DNA of 38,930 nucleotides from the IMG/VR virus record IMGVR_UViG_2545824708_000026; one strand, given 5' to 3'. A program made the position numbers. This DNA is from a virus (Duplodnaviria > Heunggongvirae > Uroviricota > Caudoviricetes). Position 1 is the first letter of the stretch. Each line of letters starts with the position of its first letter. Positions 3,001 to 9,000 of this stretch are shown here, one piece after another.

Positions 3001-6000
3001 ATCACGCAGAAGTGGGTCGTATTGCGTGTTGAAATACTCTGGATATGGGGCCGGGAGCTGGTGAGTTGTTGTTACACAAATGACGTTATTGCCATATTTC
3101 ATCATCTGGCGTTTACCAGCCTCGCGCAACTCCGCAACACCATCGTAATTTGCTGATGGTTGACCAGCACCGCCAATAAATGACTGGCTATACCACATCC
3201 ACGGCTCAACCCAAACAGGGATACGACCAAGGCCATTGCAATATAAGACAAACTCATCTATCAGTGCCGCCATATAATCGCCGTTTTGGTTTGCCTGCCC
3301 TTCGTTAGTTCCGGCAACCATAATAACGATGTAAGCATCACCCGGCCCCTGAGCCTTCAGGAGATCTAACTGTTGCCTCATTGTCTGTCCGGCAACCGCC
3401 TTGTTTACAATGCTATATGAACGGTGGCCGTTCGCTCCATCCATTAATTGCGGAATGTACGAGCTGAACGCGGAAATGAAATCCTCAGCTGTACTATCAC
3501 CGTGGATAAGGATATTAAGTGGAGGCTTACCGTGCACGCCATTATCAGAGGTGTAGCTGCATAATCCAGTTACACGCGCAGAACCTCCAGATGCCGGGGT
3601 CAGTGCAACAAACCCAACTTCGTATACATCCCCTACATCAGCAGTATCAAAGGGCAAACGTATCCCAACGCCATTCATCGTTATCTGCGCCCAGTTTTTA
3701 CCTTGCAGTGATACGCCAACGGTTGCTTTGCCCGGGGCGTACGACAGTAAACCTCCTGGCAGCGGGAATGGAGTTCCTTCTGCTACTGGACCACCAATTG
3801 GTTTCTGTCTATAAGACCACTGTGTAGCACCTGGTGCCCCATAGAACATCATCCAACCACCAGAGCATCGCAGAACAATCCCAACTTCTGAGGCGGCCTG
3901 AGATTCCATGCGAATATGTGCAGAAATATGCTCTCCAATATCTATTGGTGCGAACAGGCCTGTTGTACGGTTAGTAGTTAAGGGGAAGATAGCTGCGCTA
4001 TCTGAGGATATGGTGACTTCACCTTCATAGAAGAACGTGTCACCATTTATGGAATAAACTTTACAATCTGACCATTCCACTCGCTTCATGCGAATAGGGT
4101 TTCGGTTGAGGATGGCCTGCTTAGCCAGGTAATCCACTTCTCCACCGGTTGCTTTAAAGTTCAGGTGCGTAAATTCAAACGTACCCTCCCCCTCGTACTG
4201 CAACGATTTAAACAGTGAGTACAGATCACTGTCGAATCTCAGGGTGACATTTTTATCAATGATTACTTTACTGTTCGCAAGGAAAGAAGCGTTAGCAGCT
4301 GTAGACGGTACGGTGTACACCATCTGATTTTTTGAATGATTAGAGAAGTAAACATACCCGTAGGTCGCAACACTATCGCGCCATGCCTGGACTACGTTAG
4401 AATTATCATAACTTGGAATTTTTGTGATCGACTGCAAAACAAGATCTTCCTGTGAGATAGCTCCGTTTACCAGATTAACACCTCCTTGAGATGCAAGATC
4501 TTGCCTGAGTTGGTCAGGGTCATACTTCAGCACATTTGGGAATTTGAACTGCTGTGCACCATACGCATCATAAACAGCCATAGAATGGCCTTGCTCAGTT
4601 ACGAATTTGGCAATCTGTCCGTTATATACCGGATAACCAGCAGCGTTAATGATGATTGGTTGCGAAACAGGAACGTGAGAACCGTCTTCGTTCTCCACAT
4701 AAACCTGAATCTGGTTTTCAGGATTTACCGGGTCAGTGTCAATTTTACCGATATAAATTTTGCCATTGGCTACAGCTTAAAAAGAACGAGCCATAGTGAA
4801 GAGTTGCGAAGGCATACTCACTACAACATTGGCATTTATTGAATCTGTCATTTGATTTGCTCCAGATACAAGGAATGGCCGCAGCATGGCTACGGTGAAT
4901 TTTGGGCATAAAAAAACCCAGCCGAACCTGGGTCGTTGCGTTGGTTATCTGTCAGTAGTTATGTACTGAAGGGTTTTTATGGATACCCCAGATGACGATT
5001 GGTTAATTTTTGACATTACCAAGACCATATTGACTACTTATAAAATGAGATCAATATTTAATCGCCCAATAACGGGTGTGTGTTGAGGTATATCATGGCG
5101 AAAAAACCAGGTGAAAACACAGGAAAAAACGGCGGAATATACCAAGAAGTTGGCCCGCGCGGCGGTAAGAAAGACAATTTTGCCACCGTCAAGGACAACG
5201 AAAGGCTTCCACCAACAACAAAGCCAGGTCATGGCTGGGTATTGGATAAGCGAACTCCAGACAGCAAAAAGTAATAATCAAGCCGGTTCACTCCGGCTTT
5301 TTGATATGTCGCTCGCAGAACTCAACAAGCCTGCTCATTAAGTAGCAGTAAGTCTCGTTGGCTCTTCCTGGTTCAACATCAACACCTACCCTTGAGCAGA
5401 TATCGAATGCCATGTGAGCGCACTCATGGGCAATAGTAGATAGTTTGCCATTGAACACGCCTATCACATGCAAAACACCATTCTCGCTACTCATTGTATG
5501 AGACGCTCCGTTGGCGTCAGAGTCATGCACGTCAACGCCAAGTTTTTGATGCAGGCGTTGCCATTCTGGAAAGTCTCTACAAAACACAATTGTACCGCTC
5601 TCAAAGAGCGGAACGAGCATCTTTGGTACGTTTCCAATGTTAACTTTTTTCATGGTATCCTGCTCAAAACTAAGGAGGTTGGTGTGTATATATCGCTATC
5701 TACCATTTTTTTCATCTGCTTAGCTATTTGGCTTTTAAGAATATGGCAGGATTGCTCTGTCAGCCATGCTGCTGCGGGGAGAAATAAAAACGCCCTCATA
5801 AAAGAAGCTGAAAACGTTGTCTTATCAATGGATCACCTTTCATGGACCGAGATGACTACAGGGCAACAAGAGGTTTATGAGTGTGCGATTGAGCGGTTAA
5901 GGCTGCTTAAATCGTACAAAAAGAACCACGCACCCGACTCATTCCCATTCCTGAAAGAATGGCCGAGATGGTATGACCCGAAAAAAGCAACCATCAACCG

Positions 6001-9000
6001 CTAACCAACTTTTTACTGCTGGGCTTTCTCACTTGAAGCCTGAATTAGAGGTGTAAGAGTTTCAGATACCCGTCTGATCGCTCTATCATAAGCAGTACTT
6101 CCTTTTGGTGTGTTTGCTAACTTTAGTAATGCGTTCCTCATCGCGCGTGACTCATAGCCCCTGCCAGCCATACCGATACCAGCTCCAACTGCCGCAACTT
6201 TTGCAAACATTGGATTTGTAACAGACGCAAGAGCTGTTATCAGCGCTGCTGGACCAGCTACCATTTGCCCTGTTAGTGGGCTTGCGGCAGCAGTAGCTGC
6301 CTGTCTAGTGGAATCAAGATATTTCATTATCCCATCAAGCTGTTTCCCATGCTCTCCTCTGAAGAACGTCTCAGCCTGCTTCCGATTCCTTTTCATTTCA
6401 TTAATAAACTTCTCAACGCTAAGCTTTCCTGAATCGCTTGTCGCCTTATCCATTGCACGCTGAACAAGTGCTGCTCTAGCATTTTGACGCCCACTATCAT
6501 CAAGCAATCGATAAAGTTGCGCCCTTTCCGCTGGGCTTTGGCTAAATACTAGTTTAGTGACATCTTCTGGCGTTGTTTTACCACTCTGAATAGCTTTTTG
6601 GACACGTGTATTGCTCATCATGTCGTTGAACTTTGCCCAAGAACGATCAACACGCGACATGTTTTGCGCTTCCTTCGCACCTAGTTTTGCGCCAACCGCT
6701 TTTTTCATGTCTGTTGTGTATGCGTTATAAACAGACTGCGCAGCTTTCTCCAGCGTATCTCTATCGACCTCGTCAGGTGCTGCCATAAATCGCTTACGTA
6801 AGTTTGTACGGTTTTCTCTAGCTAATTGCAGGTTATTTGGACCGCTGGTGATGTCATTTCTAAACTGTTGAAGGACAGAAACAGCTGAGCGGTCTTGCGA
6901 TACTCCTGGGCGAGTTAACTTGGAAATCTGCTCATCAATTGCTTTCACTGTTCCAGTGATGTCAACAGGAGTATCCCCCATCAAACTGATGATCCTGTCG
7001 TACCGCTTGCCAGCAGCCTGAATAAATTGCTGCTGACCACGAGTAGCTGATTGGTAAAGTTGTGCGTCAGATATTCCACCAACATTATCGCTAAATGTTC
7101 TAACTAAATCTTCCCTGGCCTTTTGCTGTGCATTTCTTATCCCACCTGTTCCGGCTATTGGGATTCGCTCAGCCATAGCTCGTGCTTGCTTACCAATATT
7201 TGTTCCCGGTTCCACAAGATCTGTTGTCATCAGTGGCAAGTTGTTCTGCTTGGCAAAGTCAATCTGAGCTTGTTTTTCAGGAGCAATATTACCCATAGCA
7301 GAACGAGACACTGCGCTTGCGGTGTTTTCTACACCCTTCAGTACCCCACCAAGACCAGCAGAAATTGCAGTTTGAACTGGATTAACATTCTCACCGCCAG
7401 CGATCTTAGTGGCCCCCTGTAAAGCTAAATCAGTAGCGCCTGATTTTAGTGTTGCACCTACAACAGACGCAGCTCTACCTGCTGGAGTGAATGCAAGAGC
7501 ATTTGCCAAGAATGACGTTATATCCTGCGGTGACAAACCAGGCTTGTTAAGTGCATATTCCCCTGAAGGAAGGGTGACTATGGAATTTCCCTTCTCATCC
7601 TTCCGGATTTTCCCGCCAATACTTTGCAGTATTTTCTCCTGTGAAGCGTCGGAACCAAATAGCTGCCCCAATCCAGCACGCAGCGCATCAGTGCTTAAGC
7701 TATTAAGCTCTGGAGCAGACCCAACATTTTGCAGTCTCTCCATTTCTGGTGTCATTCGGCTTTCACCGGTAACGGCATCGCGCATTGCAGCACCTAAAAC
7801 AGCCCCTTGCTCAGCAGAGCGATCTAGTCCTTCCTTCTGCTGAGTGGCAAGCTGTGCATATCCTGATGCAAGTGAGTTGTCTGCTGGCGATTGCTGAACA
7901 CCTTGTTGTGTTGGTGCTGACTGACCAGCAAAATACTCATCAATGGCGGTGCCAATATCTTCGGTGCTCGTACCATCAGGAAAGGTAAATGTCTTACCGT
8001 TTGCAGTTACTTTCATCATTCCACCGTAAATTGAATGCCTGATTTTGATGTATATGATCCAACCTGATTCCGTGGTTCTCCTGAAGGTGTCGAATCTTGT
8101 GCTGGCGCTGCGTCAGTATTCATTGACATATACCGCTTAACGGCACTCCCCAATGATTCACCTTTTTTAACATCCAACCCCAATATCTGACCGCCATTAC
8201 GCGATTGTCCAGGGTTGCCATTCGCGCTCATCCACTCGGCTTTAAACTCATTAAACTGCGCGTTTCGTCGCTCAAGGTTTGCCATTGCATCAAGCCATCT
8301 TGCGACCGTCTCAGGGTTATCCATGTCAGTTGGCGCACCCTGTCGAACGATCTCAACGTCTTTATCCGTTGCTGGGCCGGGAGGTAGGAATTTAAGAACC
8401 TGACTGTTAACAAGGGCATTTTGGCGAATGCGCAAATCACGCAATGTCGTATCGCTTCCGGTAAGTTTTGCGAACATGTTCTGTGCGTTACCGAACAAAC
8501 CTGTCGTTGGTTTTTCTGCTCTGAACTGTTGAGCAAGCGCACTCATGGAATTGGCTGAGTTTGATGATGCTGTGGCATTGTTTACAGCCGTCTCGATGCC
8601 TTTTTCCATATTTACTGACAGCTTAGGTGCTTCGCTAATCAACTGCTGAGCCTTTTCCTGCGCTTGCTGCATCTTAAACCCGAACTCTTGCTGATCCAGA
8701 GCCAAGCGTTGTGCTGCGATATTGTGCCCAGTCATTGCTGACTGATAGGAAAGGTTTTGCCCTCTCGCCTGAAGTGCCTCGCCAGCCTGATTGCTGCGGA
8801 TTGTCTCTGCCAGCCTGCCTCGGTCAATTTCACGACCAGCCATCTTATCCTGAACAGCAAACGCCTTTTCTGGTCCAAGAGCACCGAGAGACATAGTAGT
8901 CAGCATGTGTGATAGCTGCTCTGGATTCTGGATACCTGTCTGAATCATCCAGTCAGCATTAGCACCAACGCGATTTAACCTGTCCTTGTTGTCAGTAATG

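What the first reader, a model, noticed from the sequence alone, without database searches (positions are those of the whole stretch)
5095..6004. Accessory gene cluster between the ejection-protein operon and the tailspike, where P22 carries immI/sieA
Three small ORFs occupy this slot: a YjzC-like 59-aa protein (plus strand, own terminator), a 121-aa minus-strand protein with an HExxH zinc-peptidase-like motif (IAHECAHMAF), and a 106-aa plus-strand protein with one N-terminal transmembrane helix behind a perfect AAGGAGG. Mixed strands and local terminators (5281-5302; 4909-4933) suggest independently expressed accessory genes. A small membrane protein here could act in superinfection exclusion, as SieA does.
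Basis: partly seen in the sequence, partly recalled or inferred. Interest (0 to 1): 0.6.

Follow-up and report, generated by a model that had tools for sequence, protein, structure and literature searches.

The report
P22-type "ant moron" accessory gene slot
This is the known variable accessory-gene region of P22-like phages, and its small membrane-protein gene sits exactly where phage P22 keeps its superinfection-exclusion gene sieA, so it is a reasonable but untested candidate for a new exclusion protein.

Summary
All three ORFs, the HExxH motif, the AAGGAGG and both terminators are present as described.

The interval is the published "ant moron" of P22-like phages, in its HK620-type form. 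mnt, arc and ant are deleted.

Two of the three genes are already catalogued, with unknown function, in P22 and HK620:
- orf59a/hkcD, 5095-5274 (+)
- hkcC, 5288-5653 (-)

They form a conserved convergent pair that also occurs inside siphophage tail operons. orf59a is weakly YjzC-like and has its own conserved promoter. HkcC has an invariant HExxH and a predicted SprT-like zincin fold, and it is co-oriented with the late operon.

The 106-aa gene (5684-6004) shows no sequence similarity to SieA or HkcB. DNA identity to P22 and HK620 runs up to and including the shared GTG start codon, then stops. The upstream 85 bp drives sieA in P22 and differs here by one base.

An IMG/VR scan found the same 20-nt RBS/GTG adaptor in front of 13 unrelated small-gene families. 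Twelve encode membrane or secreted proteins.

Distant relatives of the 106-aa protein lie directly after cI repressors in lambdoid phages. Expression in the lysogen is therefore well supported. An exclusion function is plausible but inferred.

Novelty is modest.

The parts
4915..4934 (-). Hairpin plus T-run terminator upstream of the tailspike gene. It is the remnant 'tANT' of the deleted immI region.
   Evidence: Terminator scan. The corresponding HK620 feature is annotated 'associated with remnant of P22 ant gene'.
5030..5058 (+). Sigma-70-type promoter of orf59a: TTGACT, 17 nt, AATATT.
   Evidence: Consensus scan. Both hexamers and the spacing are conserved upstream of orf59a homologues in three unrelated siphophage contexts, while the spacer sequence differs.
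5095..5274 (+). orf59a (= HK620 hkcD). A 59-aa YjzC-like protein, oriented against the late operon.
   Evidence: 98% identical to P22 Orf59a and to HK620 HkcD by tblastn. PHROG 3202, E 7e-31. Pfam YjzC is below threshold at E 1.3e-3. Closely similar 59-aa homologues lie next to hkcC homologues in Klebsiella, Rosenbergiella and metagenomic prophages.
5280..5299 (.). Bidirectional hairpin terminator shared by orf59a and hkcC (P22 t_mnt, HK620 tORF59A).
   Evidence: The stem is kept, with different bases, in distant copies of the module.
5288..5653 (-). hkcC. A 121-aa protein with a small SprT-like zincin fold and an invariant HECAH motif, co-oriented with gene 16 and the tailspike gene.
   Evidence: PHROG 1365. 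32 homologue clusters. H76, E77, C78, H80 and C86 are invariant; N99, E100, T101 and C103 are nearly so. AF2 model pLDDT 89. BFVD Foldseek gives 26 hits at E<=1e-3; the few that carry a name are called SprT-like, and Metalloprotease/IrrE names appear just below that cut.
5599..5683 (+). The 85 bp upstream of the slot gene, equivalent to the P22 fragment that carries P_sieA. It overlaps the 5' end of hkcC on the other strand.
   Evidence: One mismatch to P22 in the 91 nt upstream of the GTG. In P22, 85 bp upstream plus sieA in single copy gives full exclusion (PMC10883804). P_sieA is annotated in the P22 record at the equivalent of 5623-5653.
5667..5686 (+). Conserved RBS/start-codon adaptor AAACTAAGGAGGTTGGTGTG. 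This is the left boundary of the swappable cassette.
   Evidence: Unique in the window, with 0 matches expected. It precedes 13 unrelated gene families in 120 IMG/VR contigs. Identity to P22 and HK620 ends immediately after the GTG.
5684..6004 (+). Cassette gene 'M106'. A 106-aa single-pass membrane protein: TM at residues 2-18, then a helical C-terminal domain predicted to be cytoplasmic. It sits in the sieA/hkcB position.
   Evidence: PHROG 10450. No similarity to SieA or HkcB. A small family: 14 clusters at 90% identity and 13 representatives at 50%. AF2 pLDDT 88, helices 5-48 and 59-77. Charge bias in all 14 members. It always abuts gene 16 in P22-like phages and follows cI in lambdoid phages.
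6013..8019 (-). Gene 16 homologue (ejection protein), convergent with M106 across an 8-nt gap. This is context and the right boundary of the cassette.
   Evidence: 99.7% identical to phage N7 ORF13; similar to P22 gp16 only over the N-terminal 44 aa. The Pfam Phage_P22_gp16 family hits the neighbours in related loci.

Best explanation
The interval is the HK620-type, immI-deleted form of the 'ant moron' of P22-like phages. It contains two separate units.

**Unit 1: the orf59a/hkcC pair.** This is a mobile, convergent gene pair with a shared hairpin terminator.
- orf59a (YjzC-like, 59 aa) is transcribed from its own conserved sigma-70 promoter, against the direction of late transcription.
- hkcC (121 aa, HExxH, SprT-like zincin fold) points the same way as genes 16 and 9. 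It is most likely read as part of the late transcript.
- The biochemical role of the pair is unknown.

**Unit 2: the cassette gene (106 aa).** It is joined at its GTG start codon to the conserved P_sieA promoter/RBS adaptor, and its stop lies 8 nt from the gene 16 stop. This is the position of sieA in P22 and of hkcB in HK620.
- Shown: the position, the shared expression signals, the N-terminal hydrophobic anchor, and the recurrent placement of the family in two classic prophage-expressed positions.
- Inferred: the protein is made in the lysogen. It sits in the inner membrane with a very short N-terminus outside and an ~85-aa helical domain in the cytoplasm. It protects the lysogen against incoming phage. 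Most likely it interferes with DNA delivery by P22-like ejection proteins at the inner membrane, as an analogue of SieA rather than a homologue.
For: **Anatomy**
- 95% DNA identity to HK620 over 4601-5687 and 97% to P22 over 5001-5687, with the annotated features hkcD/orf59a, tORF59A/t_mnt, hkcC and P_sieA.
- The window, P22 and HK620 match through AAGGAGGTTGGTGTG apart from 1-2 bases about 18 nt upstream of the GTG, then share nothing.
- The region is published as a fast-changing moron (PMC2629481).

**Expression of the slot gene**
- 85 bp upstream of sieA is sufficient for full exclusion in single copy (PMC10883804). The window differs by one base.

**The slot hosts envelope proteins**
- 120 IMG/VR contigs carry the exact 20-nt adaptor. 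Their 119 complete ORFs fall into 13 unrelated families.
- 12 of 13 families have a TM helix or a signal-peptide-like N-terminus. 10 of 13 end within 60 nt of a convergent gene 16.
- One family is experimentally proven SieA. A SieA type-B-like gene occupies the same slot in L041.

**The M106 family sits in prophage-expressed positions**
- It abuts gene 16, opposite to the late operon, in every P22-like context with an intact gene 16 that I examined. This holds for gp16 neighbours down to 33% identity to the window's.
- In N7, L005, L006, L055 and L058/59 it also lies downstream of, and co-directional with, mnt. In 23 IMG/VR loci adjacency to gene 16 was scored, with or without mnt upstream.
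- It lies 3-14 nt after the cI-type (S24) repressor in 3 of 3 lambdoid contexts, the position rexAB holds in lambda.

**Topology**
- There are no K/R residues before the TM and 1-4 after it in all 14 members.

**The orf59a/hkcC pair**
- 79 of 93 hkcC loci have a convergent orf59a about 19 nt away.
- The pair recurs between tail-chaperone and tape-measure genes of siphophage prophages, with the promoter hexamers and terminator stem conserved.

**HkcC fold**
-.
Against: - There is no experimental evidence for any of the three proteins.
- M106 shares no sequence or architecture with SieA: one TM helix against four by my hydropathy scan, and no FxRYPxEAxxFNK motif.
- M106 has no match in PADLOC, Pfam or NCBIfam.
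- Tight linkage to gene 16 can be explained by physical adjacency alone.
- Relatives in siphoviral lambdoid prophages show that the family is not tied to P22-type ejection proteins in its own genome.
- Position in a moron slot also fits non-defence functions.
- The topology rests only on the positive-inside rule.
- The third metal ligand is only guessed to be E100.
- hkcC occurs without orf59a in 14 of 93 loci, so any obligatory partnership is excluded.
Confidence: 0.45

Rival explanations
1. The 106-aa protein is made by the prophage but acts on host physiology rather than on incoming phage. In this reading it is a lysogenic-conversion or fitness factor, for example one that modulates an inner-membrane process, stress tolerance or competition.
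For: - The cassettes in the slot are heterogeneous. They include secreted proteins and one soluble family.
- One mnt operon that carries an M106 relative also carries a Rap1a-type T6SS immunity gene. These operons therefore collect non-phage-directed cargo too.
- There is no PADLOC hit.
Against: - The only characterised occupant of the slot, SieA types A and B, is an exclusion protein (PMC10883804).
- The other home of the family is the position downstream of cI that rexAB occupies in lambda, a classic exclusion-gene position.
Confidence: 0.25
2. The 106-aa gene and its promoter serve the phage's own lytic programme. One version is transcription running convergently into gene 16, which tunes late read-through and tailspike dosage. 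Another is that the protein assists or times the phage's own ejection-protein or lysis functions.
For: [quoted passage not shown]
- No terminator was found between the M106 stop and gene 16, so the transcripts must collide.
- M106 and the neighbouring gp16 diverge roughly in parallel: 99/99.7%, 67/85%, 72/66% and 39/33% identity.
Against: - 13 unrelated coding sequences, all with intact ORFs and conserved protein features, argue that the proteins matter and not just the act of transcription.
- Relatives downstream of cI lie in lambdoid, non-P22-type regulatory regions with no gene 16 alongside.
- sieA itself is dispensable for lytic growth (PMC11016777).
Confidence: 0.1
3. hkcC and orf59a form a toxin-antitoxin-like or protease-inhibitor pair. 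The lysogen-expressed Orf59a would hold the HkcC protease in check, or would be its substrate, until late lytic expression.
For: - A convergent pair is conserved across phage types, with a shared terminator and an independent orf59a promoter.
- The opposite orientations imply different expression phases.
Against: - 14 of 93 hkcC loci lack orf59a and carry a 74-aa two-TM gene in its place.
- A convergent arrangement is atypical for type II TA systems.
- YjzC-like genes also occur alone as antisense inserts in late operons, as in Clostridium phage phiCT9441A.
- No interaction data exist.
Confidence: 0.12
4. Some or all of the ORFs are decaying remnants with no function, left behind when immI was deleted.
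For: - mnt, arc and ant are gone, and only terminator remnants remain.
- HK620 annotators wrote that hkcD 'may encode' a protein.
- The prophage carries a nonsense codon in its tailspike gene.
Against: - All three ORFs are intact.
- Each is conserved at the protein level in unrelated contexts.
- Functional signals are conserved as well: the orf59a promoter hexamers, the terminator stem and the adaptor.
Confidence: 0.05

Closest known systems
P22 SieA, types A, B and C (Leavitt et al. 2024, PMC10883804)
   Same: - Same genomic slot, abutting the 3' end of gene 16 and opposite to the late operon.
- Same upstream 85 bp, RBS and GTG start codon.
- A small inner-membrane protein whose most conserved motif is predicted to face the cytoplasm.
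- Carried by P22-like prophages of E. coli and Salmonella.
   Different: - No sequence similarity.
- One TM helix instead of four, and 106 aa against 164-204 aa.
- No FxRYPxEAxxFNK motif.
- The exclusion phenotype is untested.
- The family also occurs outside P22-like phages, downstream of cI.
HK620 hkcB / hkcC / hkcD region (AF335538)
   Same: - The left part, 4601-5687, is 95% identical. It includes hkcD (orf59a), tORF59A, hkcC and the ant/mnt remnants.
- HkcB has the same architecture as M106: an N-terminal anchor without positive charges, then a helical domain.
   Different: - The slot gene is a different, unrelated sequence.
- The neighbouring gene 16 is of a different type.
- None of the HK620 genes has a known function.
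SprT/Spartan-like minimal zincin metalloproteases. SPRTN is PDB 6mdx; several phage proteins are annotated 'SprT-like'.
   Same: - Invariant HExxH on a long helix that follows a small beta-sheet.
- Foldseek matches to phage proteins named SprT-like (E 2.5e-5 and 4.5e-4, probability 1.0).
- The top Foldseek PDB hit is SPRTN.
   Different: - No Pfam SprT-like hit.
- The PDB match is not significant (E 0.2).
- The candidate third ligand is a Glu 20 residues after the second His. That is thermolysin-like spacing (from my own knowledge), not the extra His of SPRTN.
- Four conserved Cys residues have no known role.
- No DNA-binding region.
- Activity is untested.
lambda rexAB position and single-pass injection blockers such as HK97 gp15 and T4 Imm (from my own knowledge, not tested here)
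   Same: - Small prophage-expressed inner-membrane proteins encoded in morons.
- M106 relatives lie directly downstream of cI, where lambda has rexAB.
   Different: - No sequence relationship was tested or is expected.
- Mechanism and targets are unknown.
YjzC family (Pfam PF14168)
   Same: - Orf59a aligns to positions 8-54 of the 55-position profile.
- It has a 43%-identical relative annotated 'YjzC family protein' in Clostridium phage phiCT9441A. That gene is also inserted antisense in a late operon.
   Different: - The score is below the Pfam gathering threshold (19.4 against 25 bits).
- The family itself has no known function.

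Membership tests
SieA superinfection-exclusion proteins (types A/B/C) | Sequence homology to SieA, including the FxRYPxEAxxFNK motif | tested here: not met
   BLASTP of M106 against P22 SieA gives no alignment at E<=100. The motif is absent from M106. As a control, the SieA-B-like 204-aa gene in L041 is detected (28% identity, E 6e-8, NRYPGEA).
SieA superinfection-exclusion proteins (types A/B/C) | Multi-pass inner-membrane topology. The three SieA types share very similar TM predictions (PMC10883804). 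| tested here: not met
   M106 has a single hydrophobic segment, residues 2-18. The AF2 model shows one long helix, 5-48. P22 SieA gives four segments in the same scan.
SieA superinfection-exclusion proteins (types A/B/C) | Position between genes 16 and 9 of a P22-like prophage, next to gene 16 | tested here: met
SieA superinfection-exclusion proteins (types A/B/C) | Expression from P_sieA in the lysogen | tested here: inconclusive
   The upstream 91 nt differ from P22 by one base. 85 bp suffices in P22 (PMC10883804). Actual transcription cannot be tested with these tools.
SieA superinfection-exclusion proteins (types A/B/C) | Blocks DNA injection by P22-like phages; escape maps to gp16/gp20 | not testable with these tools
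   Needs plating, K+ efflux and escape-mutant experiments.
Zincin (HExxH) metallopeptidase, SprT-like fold, for HkcC | Conserved HExxH on the active-site helix | tested here: met
   H76, E77 and H80 are invariant in 20 sequences down to 43% identity. The motif lies in helix 71-88 of the pLDDT-89 model.
Zincin (HExxH) metallopeptidase, SprT-like fold, for HkcC | Third metal ligand | tested here: inconclusive
   E100 is nearly invariant within ANET, at the start of the next helix, 20 residues after H80. Model coordinates could not be inspected. D84, C86 and C103 are alternatives.
Zincin (HExxH) metallopeptidase, SprT-like fold, for HkcC | Significant fold or profile match to known members | tested here: inconclusive
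   - BFVD: 26 hits at E<=1e-3. Named ones are 'SprT-like family protein' (E 2.5e-5) and 'SprT-like' (E 4.5e-4). 'Metalloprotease' (E 2.4e-3) and 'IrrE' (E 0.04-0.06) follow below that cut.
- Pfam, NCBIfam and PDB sequence searches: no hit.
Zincin (HExxH) metallopeptidase, SprT-like fold, for HkcC | Zinc-dependent proteolytic activity | not testable with these tools
   Needs purified protein, metal analysis and a substrate search.
YjzC family (PF14168), for Orf59a | Score above the Pfam gathering threshold | tested here: not met
   19.4 bits against a cutoff of 25, E 1.3e-3. The match covers profile positions 8-54 of 55, and three distant homologues score 17-19 bits. Supporting evidence: tblastn to a phage gene annotated YjzC family, 43% identity, E 4e-4. 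The relationship is likely but below the curated cutoff.
Moron (independently expressed insert in a late operon) | Own promoter and terminator, variable presence among related phages, no role in morphogenesis | tested here: met
   - Promoter-like sites and terminators.
- At least six different arrangements beside the same gene 16.
- Published definition and description (PMC2629481).
- Promoter activity itself was not measured.
Type II toxin-antitoxin pair, considered for hkcC/orf59a | Obligatory co-occurrence in a co-directional operon | tested here: not met
   The genes are convergent, not co-directional. 14 of 93 hkcC loci lack orf59a.

The most novel reading that the evidence does not exclude
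The gene-16-proximal end of the P22-like ant moron is a hot-swappable expression socket. A fixed -10/RBS/GTG adaptor sits on one side and the stop codon of gene 16 on the other.

At least 13 unrelated small envelope-protein genes have been plugged into it. They would function as alternative superinfection-exclusion or defence determinants.

The 106-aa family would then be a new class of single-pass, cytoplasm-facing exclusion protein. It would be used both in this socket and in the position downstream of cI in lambdoid prophages.
Probability: 0.3. Interest if true: 0.6.

Novelty: new member of a known kind. Interest (0 to 1): 0.38.

Why it matters
- **An open question about P22-like phages.** About two thirds of sequenced P22-like phages lack sieA (44 of 66; PMC10883804). 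What they carry in its place has not been studied.
- **A ready candidate set.** If the 106-aa protein and the other cassettes behind the same adaptor are exclusion proteins, they are compact, unrelated inhibitors of the same DNA-delivery machine. They could be used to dissect how gp16 and gp20 cross the inner membrane. They would also help predict phage resistance in prophage-carrying E. coli; the gene is present in 57 of 5,426 complete genomes.
- **A direct test exists.** The experimental system has been published: single-copy insertion at galK with 85 bp of upstream sequence, plus hybrid phages carrying different ejection proteins.
- **A second lead.** The hkcC/orf59a pair is a small, widespread phage module of unknown role that contains a putative protease.
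- **If none of this holds.** The region is simply one more variant of a known, fast-changing moron.

Tried and rejected
**My own error**
- In some searches I queried orf59a as 5096-5274, one base out of frame. That is the overlapping 76-aa ORF at 5111-5341.
- Those 'no hit' results, and the homologue list P0058-P0063, do not apply to orf59a.
- I dropped the idea of 'frameshift decay' that I had drawn from them.
- The scans were redone in the right frame.

**Searches that found nothing useful**
- Pfam, NCBIfam and PADLOC: no significant hit for M106 or HkcC. No PADLOC or NCBIfam hit for Orf59a.
- PDB sequence searches for all three proteins: none for M106 or HkcC, and only spurious designed 'Cake' repeat proteins for Orf59a.
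- The afdb50 fold library was unavailable.
- Rfam on 4400-6300: nothing.
- The genome-contig scan with gp16 returned no confirmed locus.
- Literature searches for hkcC, mEp043 and SprT-like anti-defence found no functional data.

**Ideas rejected**
- M106 as a diverged SieA or HkcB.
- M106 as a spanin-like, periplasm-facing protein. The charge bias points the C-terminus inward in all 14 members.
- The longer 178-aa reading frame from ATG 5468. Family length and the phage N7 ATG start support the 106-aa form.
- An obligatory hkcC/orf59a partnership.
- P0055, a 676-aa repeat protein matched in seven stretches, treated as a spurious low-complexity match.

Full report
**1. What is in the sequence**

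- orf59a: 5095-5274 (+), 59 aa.
- A 121-aa ORF at 5288-5653 (-), containing IAHECAHMAF.
- A 106-aa ORF at 5684-6004 (+). It starts at a GTG 6 nt after a perfect AAGGAGG and opens with a strongly hydrophobic segment.

A hairpin terminator lies at 5280-5299, between the two convergent genes. A second one lies at 4915-4934 on the minus strand. The flanks are a gene 16 homologue at 6013-8019 (-) and a tailspike gene whose N-terminal head-binding domain starts at 4851 (-).

**2. The region is a known one**

Megablast shows 95% identity to coliphage HK620 over 4601-5687 and 97% identity to P22 over 5001-5687.

The HK620 record annotates this stretch as follows:
- remnants of the ant and mnt terminators;
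- 'may encode HkcD' (the orf59a equivalent);
- a bidirectional terminator, tORF59A;
- hkcC;
- hkcB.

The P22 record annotates mnt, orf59a, t_mnt, P_sieA and sieA.

Villafane et al. named this gene 16 to gene 9 interval the 'ant moron'. [quoted passage not shown] They also noted ten arrangements in sixteen genomes (PMC2629481).

So two of the three ORFs are shared with P22, not alternatives to its content. The window has the HK620-type deletion of mnt, arc and ant.

**3. The 106-aa gene sits in the sieA socket**

The window, P22 and HK620 match up to and including AAGGAGGTTGGTGTG, apart from 1-2 bases about 18 nt upstream of the GTG. They have nothing in common after the GTG. The 91 nt upstream differ from P22 by one base.

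Leavitt et al. showed that sieA with only 85 bp of upstream DNA, in single copy, excludes P22 completely (PMC10883804).

The 106-aa protein, which I call M106, has no detectable similarity to HkcB (E 3.9) or to SieA (no alignment).

It is 99% identical to a hypothetical protein of E. coli phages N7 and HZ41. In N7 it again abuts a 99.7%-identical gene 16, but it has entirely different upstream neighbours.

**4. Survey of the socket**

I first fetched IMG/VR loci through the gene 16 product.
- All 20 loci with gp16 at 99% identity or more carry M106 10-14 nt beyond the gene 16 stop. So do three loci at 85-87%.
- The far side of the gene shows at least six arrangements.
- Loci with gp16 at 65-78% identity mostly carry other genes there. 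These include a 116-125-aa four-TM protein, a 204-aa SieA-type-B-like protein (28% identical to P22 SieA, with NRYPGEA) and a signal-peptide-bearing protein.

I then ran an unbiased scan of IMG/VR for the exact 20-mer AAACTAAGGAGGTTGGTGTG. This string is unique in the window, with 0 matches expected by chance.

The 119 complete ORFs that start at that GTG fall into 13 families with no BLASTP link at E<=1e-5:

| Family | Count |
|---|---|
| HkcB | 21 |
| 129-aa, signal-peptide protein | 17 |
| 109-aa, TM plus coiled-coil protein | 14 |
| 62-aa, two-TM protein | 12 |
| SieA | 11 |
| 75-aa, three-TM protein | 9 |
| M106 | 9 |
| 140-aa, soluble protein | 8 |
| 116-aa, four-TM protein | 6 |
| 99-aa, signal-peptide protein | 5 |
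| 149-aa, one-TM protein | 4 |
| 68-aa protein | 2 |
| 42-aa protein | 1 |

- Twelve of the thirteen have a TM helix or a signal-peptide-like N-terminus.
- Ten of the thirteen end within 60 nt of a convergent gene 16.
- What lies upstream of the adaptor also varies. Conservation typically extends about 45 nt before the GTG, and includes the TATCAT/TTTCAT hexamer that corresponds to the annotated P_sieA -10.

I read this as a fixed expression adaptor into which alternative envelope-protein genes are exchanged. One of them, SieA, is the proven exclusion protein. I did not find this adaptor or census described in the papers I could search. That library is incomplete.

**5. The M106 family elsewhere**

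The family is small: 14 clusters at 90% identity, and 13 representatives at 50% identity among 1.84 billion proteins.

Conserved features are the N-terminal anchor, the motifs LIxEA, CAIERL and KKNHAP, and an invariant WP.

In P22-like prophages even distant members (39% identity) sit next to gene 16. They lie downstream of, and co-directional with, mnt. M106 and gp16 identities fall roughly in parallel.

A second subgroup, at 29-37% identity, lies 3-14 nt downstream of the cI-type S24 repressor in three out of three lambdoid contexts: mEp043 gp49, L056 and L057. That is the position of rexAB in lambda (from my own knowledge).

Both homes are canonical lysogen-expressed positions.

The AF2 model has pLDDT 88. 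It shows one long helix (5-48) that starts in the membrane, a second helix (59-77) and an ordered tail. In all 14 members there is no K/R before the TM and 1-4 K/R just after it. The positive-inside rule therefore puts the ~85-aa domain in the cytoplasm. HkcB and the 109-aa family share this layout.

**6. hkcC and orf59a are a pair**

*HkcC*
- 32 homologue clusters.
- H76, E77, C78, H80 and C86 are invariant. N99, E100, T101 and C103 are nearly invariant. The H, H, E spacing equals that of thermolysin-type gluzincins (from my own knowledge).
- The AF2 model (pLDDT 89) is a small sheet plus two long helices, with HExxH on the first helix.
- Against predicted viral structures there are 26 hits at E<=1e-3, in very diverse phages. 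The named ones are 'SprT-like'. 'Metalloprotease' and 'IrrE' names appear at E 0.002-0.06.

*Orientation and expression*
- hkcC points the same way as genes 16 and 9.
- It has an AGGA Shine-Dalgarno sequence but no promoter-like site upstream.
- It is most simply a late-operon passenger.

*The pair in other phages*
- Homologues at 57-60% identity in Klebsiella, Rosenbergiella and metagenomic siphophage prophages lie between the tail chaperone and tape-measure genes.
- Each is followed about 14 nt later by a convergent 59-aa gene closely similar to Orf59a.
- The orf59a promoter hexamers (TTGACT, 17 nt, AATATT; window 5030-5058) are conserved while the spacer varies.
- The terminator stem is maintained with different bases.
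- Across my loci, 79 of 93 hkcC genes have the partner. The other 14 carry a 74-aa two-TM gene instead. The pairing is therefore frequent but not obligatory.

*Orf59a*
- It scores just under the Pfam YjzC threshold.
- It has a 43%-identical 'YjzC family protein' relative in a Clostridium phage. That gene is likewise inserted antisense in a late operon.

**7. How it most likely works**

*Shown*
- The anatomy.
- The shared expression signals.
- The envelope bias of the socket.
- The recurrence of the M106 family in prophage-expressed positions.

*Inferred*
- M106 is made in lysogens from the P_sieA-type promoter and anchored in the inner membrane with its helical domain in the cytoplasm.
- It protects the lysogen against superinfecting phage.
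- The leading version is interference with the gp16/gp20 conduit at the inner membrane, by analogy with SieA, whose own most conserved motif is also predicted to be cytoplasmic.
- I put about 0.45 on a phage-protective role in general and about 0.3 on an injection block specifically.
- For hkcC and orf59a I can commit only to 'late-expressed small zincin-fold protein plus independently expressed YjzC-like protein'. A protease-regulator relation is possible but weakly supported.

**8. Comparison, novelty and verdict**

M106 fails the membership tests for SieA on sequence, motif and TM number. It passes the positional test. It may work like SieA, but it is not a SieA.

The region, and two of its three genes, are already catalogued. 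The third gene is a hypothetical protein present in 57 of 5,426 complete E. coli genomes; hkcC is present in 131.

I rate the finding as a new member of a known kind, with interest 0.38. Nothing here would surprise a P22 specialist.

The useful additions are the 13-family cassette socket, the homologues downstream of cI, and the mobile hkcC/orf59a pair. All are directly testable with a published assay.

Noticed in passing
window 4777-4779 (minus strand); tailspike gene 2611-4851: The tailspike gene has an in-frame TAA at codon 25 (RSF*AVANGK). The otherwise identical IMG/VR contig L007 and phage HK620 have AAA (Lys) there. Either this prophage cannot make full-length tailspike, or it is a sequencing error or a mutant.
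   Followed up: partly
window 2611-4776 (minus strand): Downstream of the P22-type head-binding domain (Pfam E 5e-50), the tailspike has a weak, below-threshold GDSL/SGNH-like hydrolase match at residues 426-603 (E 7e-4). This hints at an esterase-type receptor-modifying domain rather than a P22-type endorhamnosidase.
   Followed up: partly
window 5111-5341 (+), overlapping orf59a in the +1 frame: A 76-aa ORF overlaps orf59a. Public databases contain proteins called in this frame (P0058-P0063). Some begin MAKKP, as orf59a does, and then continue in the +1 frame. Gene calling here is therefore inconsistent across genomes, and some genomes may carry indels.
   Followed up: partly
L145-L264 (IMG/VR contigs with the adaptor); window 5667-5686: The exact 20-mer AAACTAAGGAGGTTGGTGTG precedes 13 unrelated small-gene families, almost all membrane or secreted proteins. 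Only SieA has a known function. Each family was found with essentially one broad gp16 type.
   Followed up: yes
L058 3641-3988 and L059 971-1318: In one P22-like prophage lineage the mnt operon carries a Rap1a-family gene between mnt and the M106-like gene. Rap1a is a T6SS immunity protein family (PF18602).
   Followed up: no
L265 2486-2653 (Clostridium phage phiCT9441A): A YjzC-family gene is inserted in the opposite orientation inside the head-gene cluster of a Firmicute phage. This mirrors the antisense placement of orf59a in enterobacterial late operons.
   Followed up: partly
L009, L018, L067, L069, L107 (about 16-240 nt after the hkcC stop): Where orf59a is missing, a 74-aa two-TM protein gene (MVSAILSVLLASLFIGVVLISP...) takes its convergent position next to hkcC. 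Half of the terminator stem is retained.
   Followed up: partly
L012 6896-7537: In one arrangement a 213-aa gene with a helix-turn-helix-like N-terminus, resembling a repressor, lies directly upstream of the adaptor and M106 and is co-directional with them.
   Followed up: no
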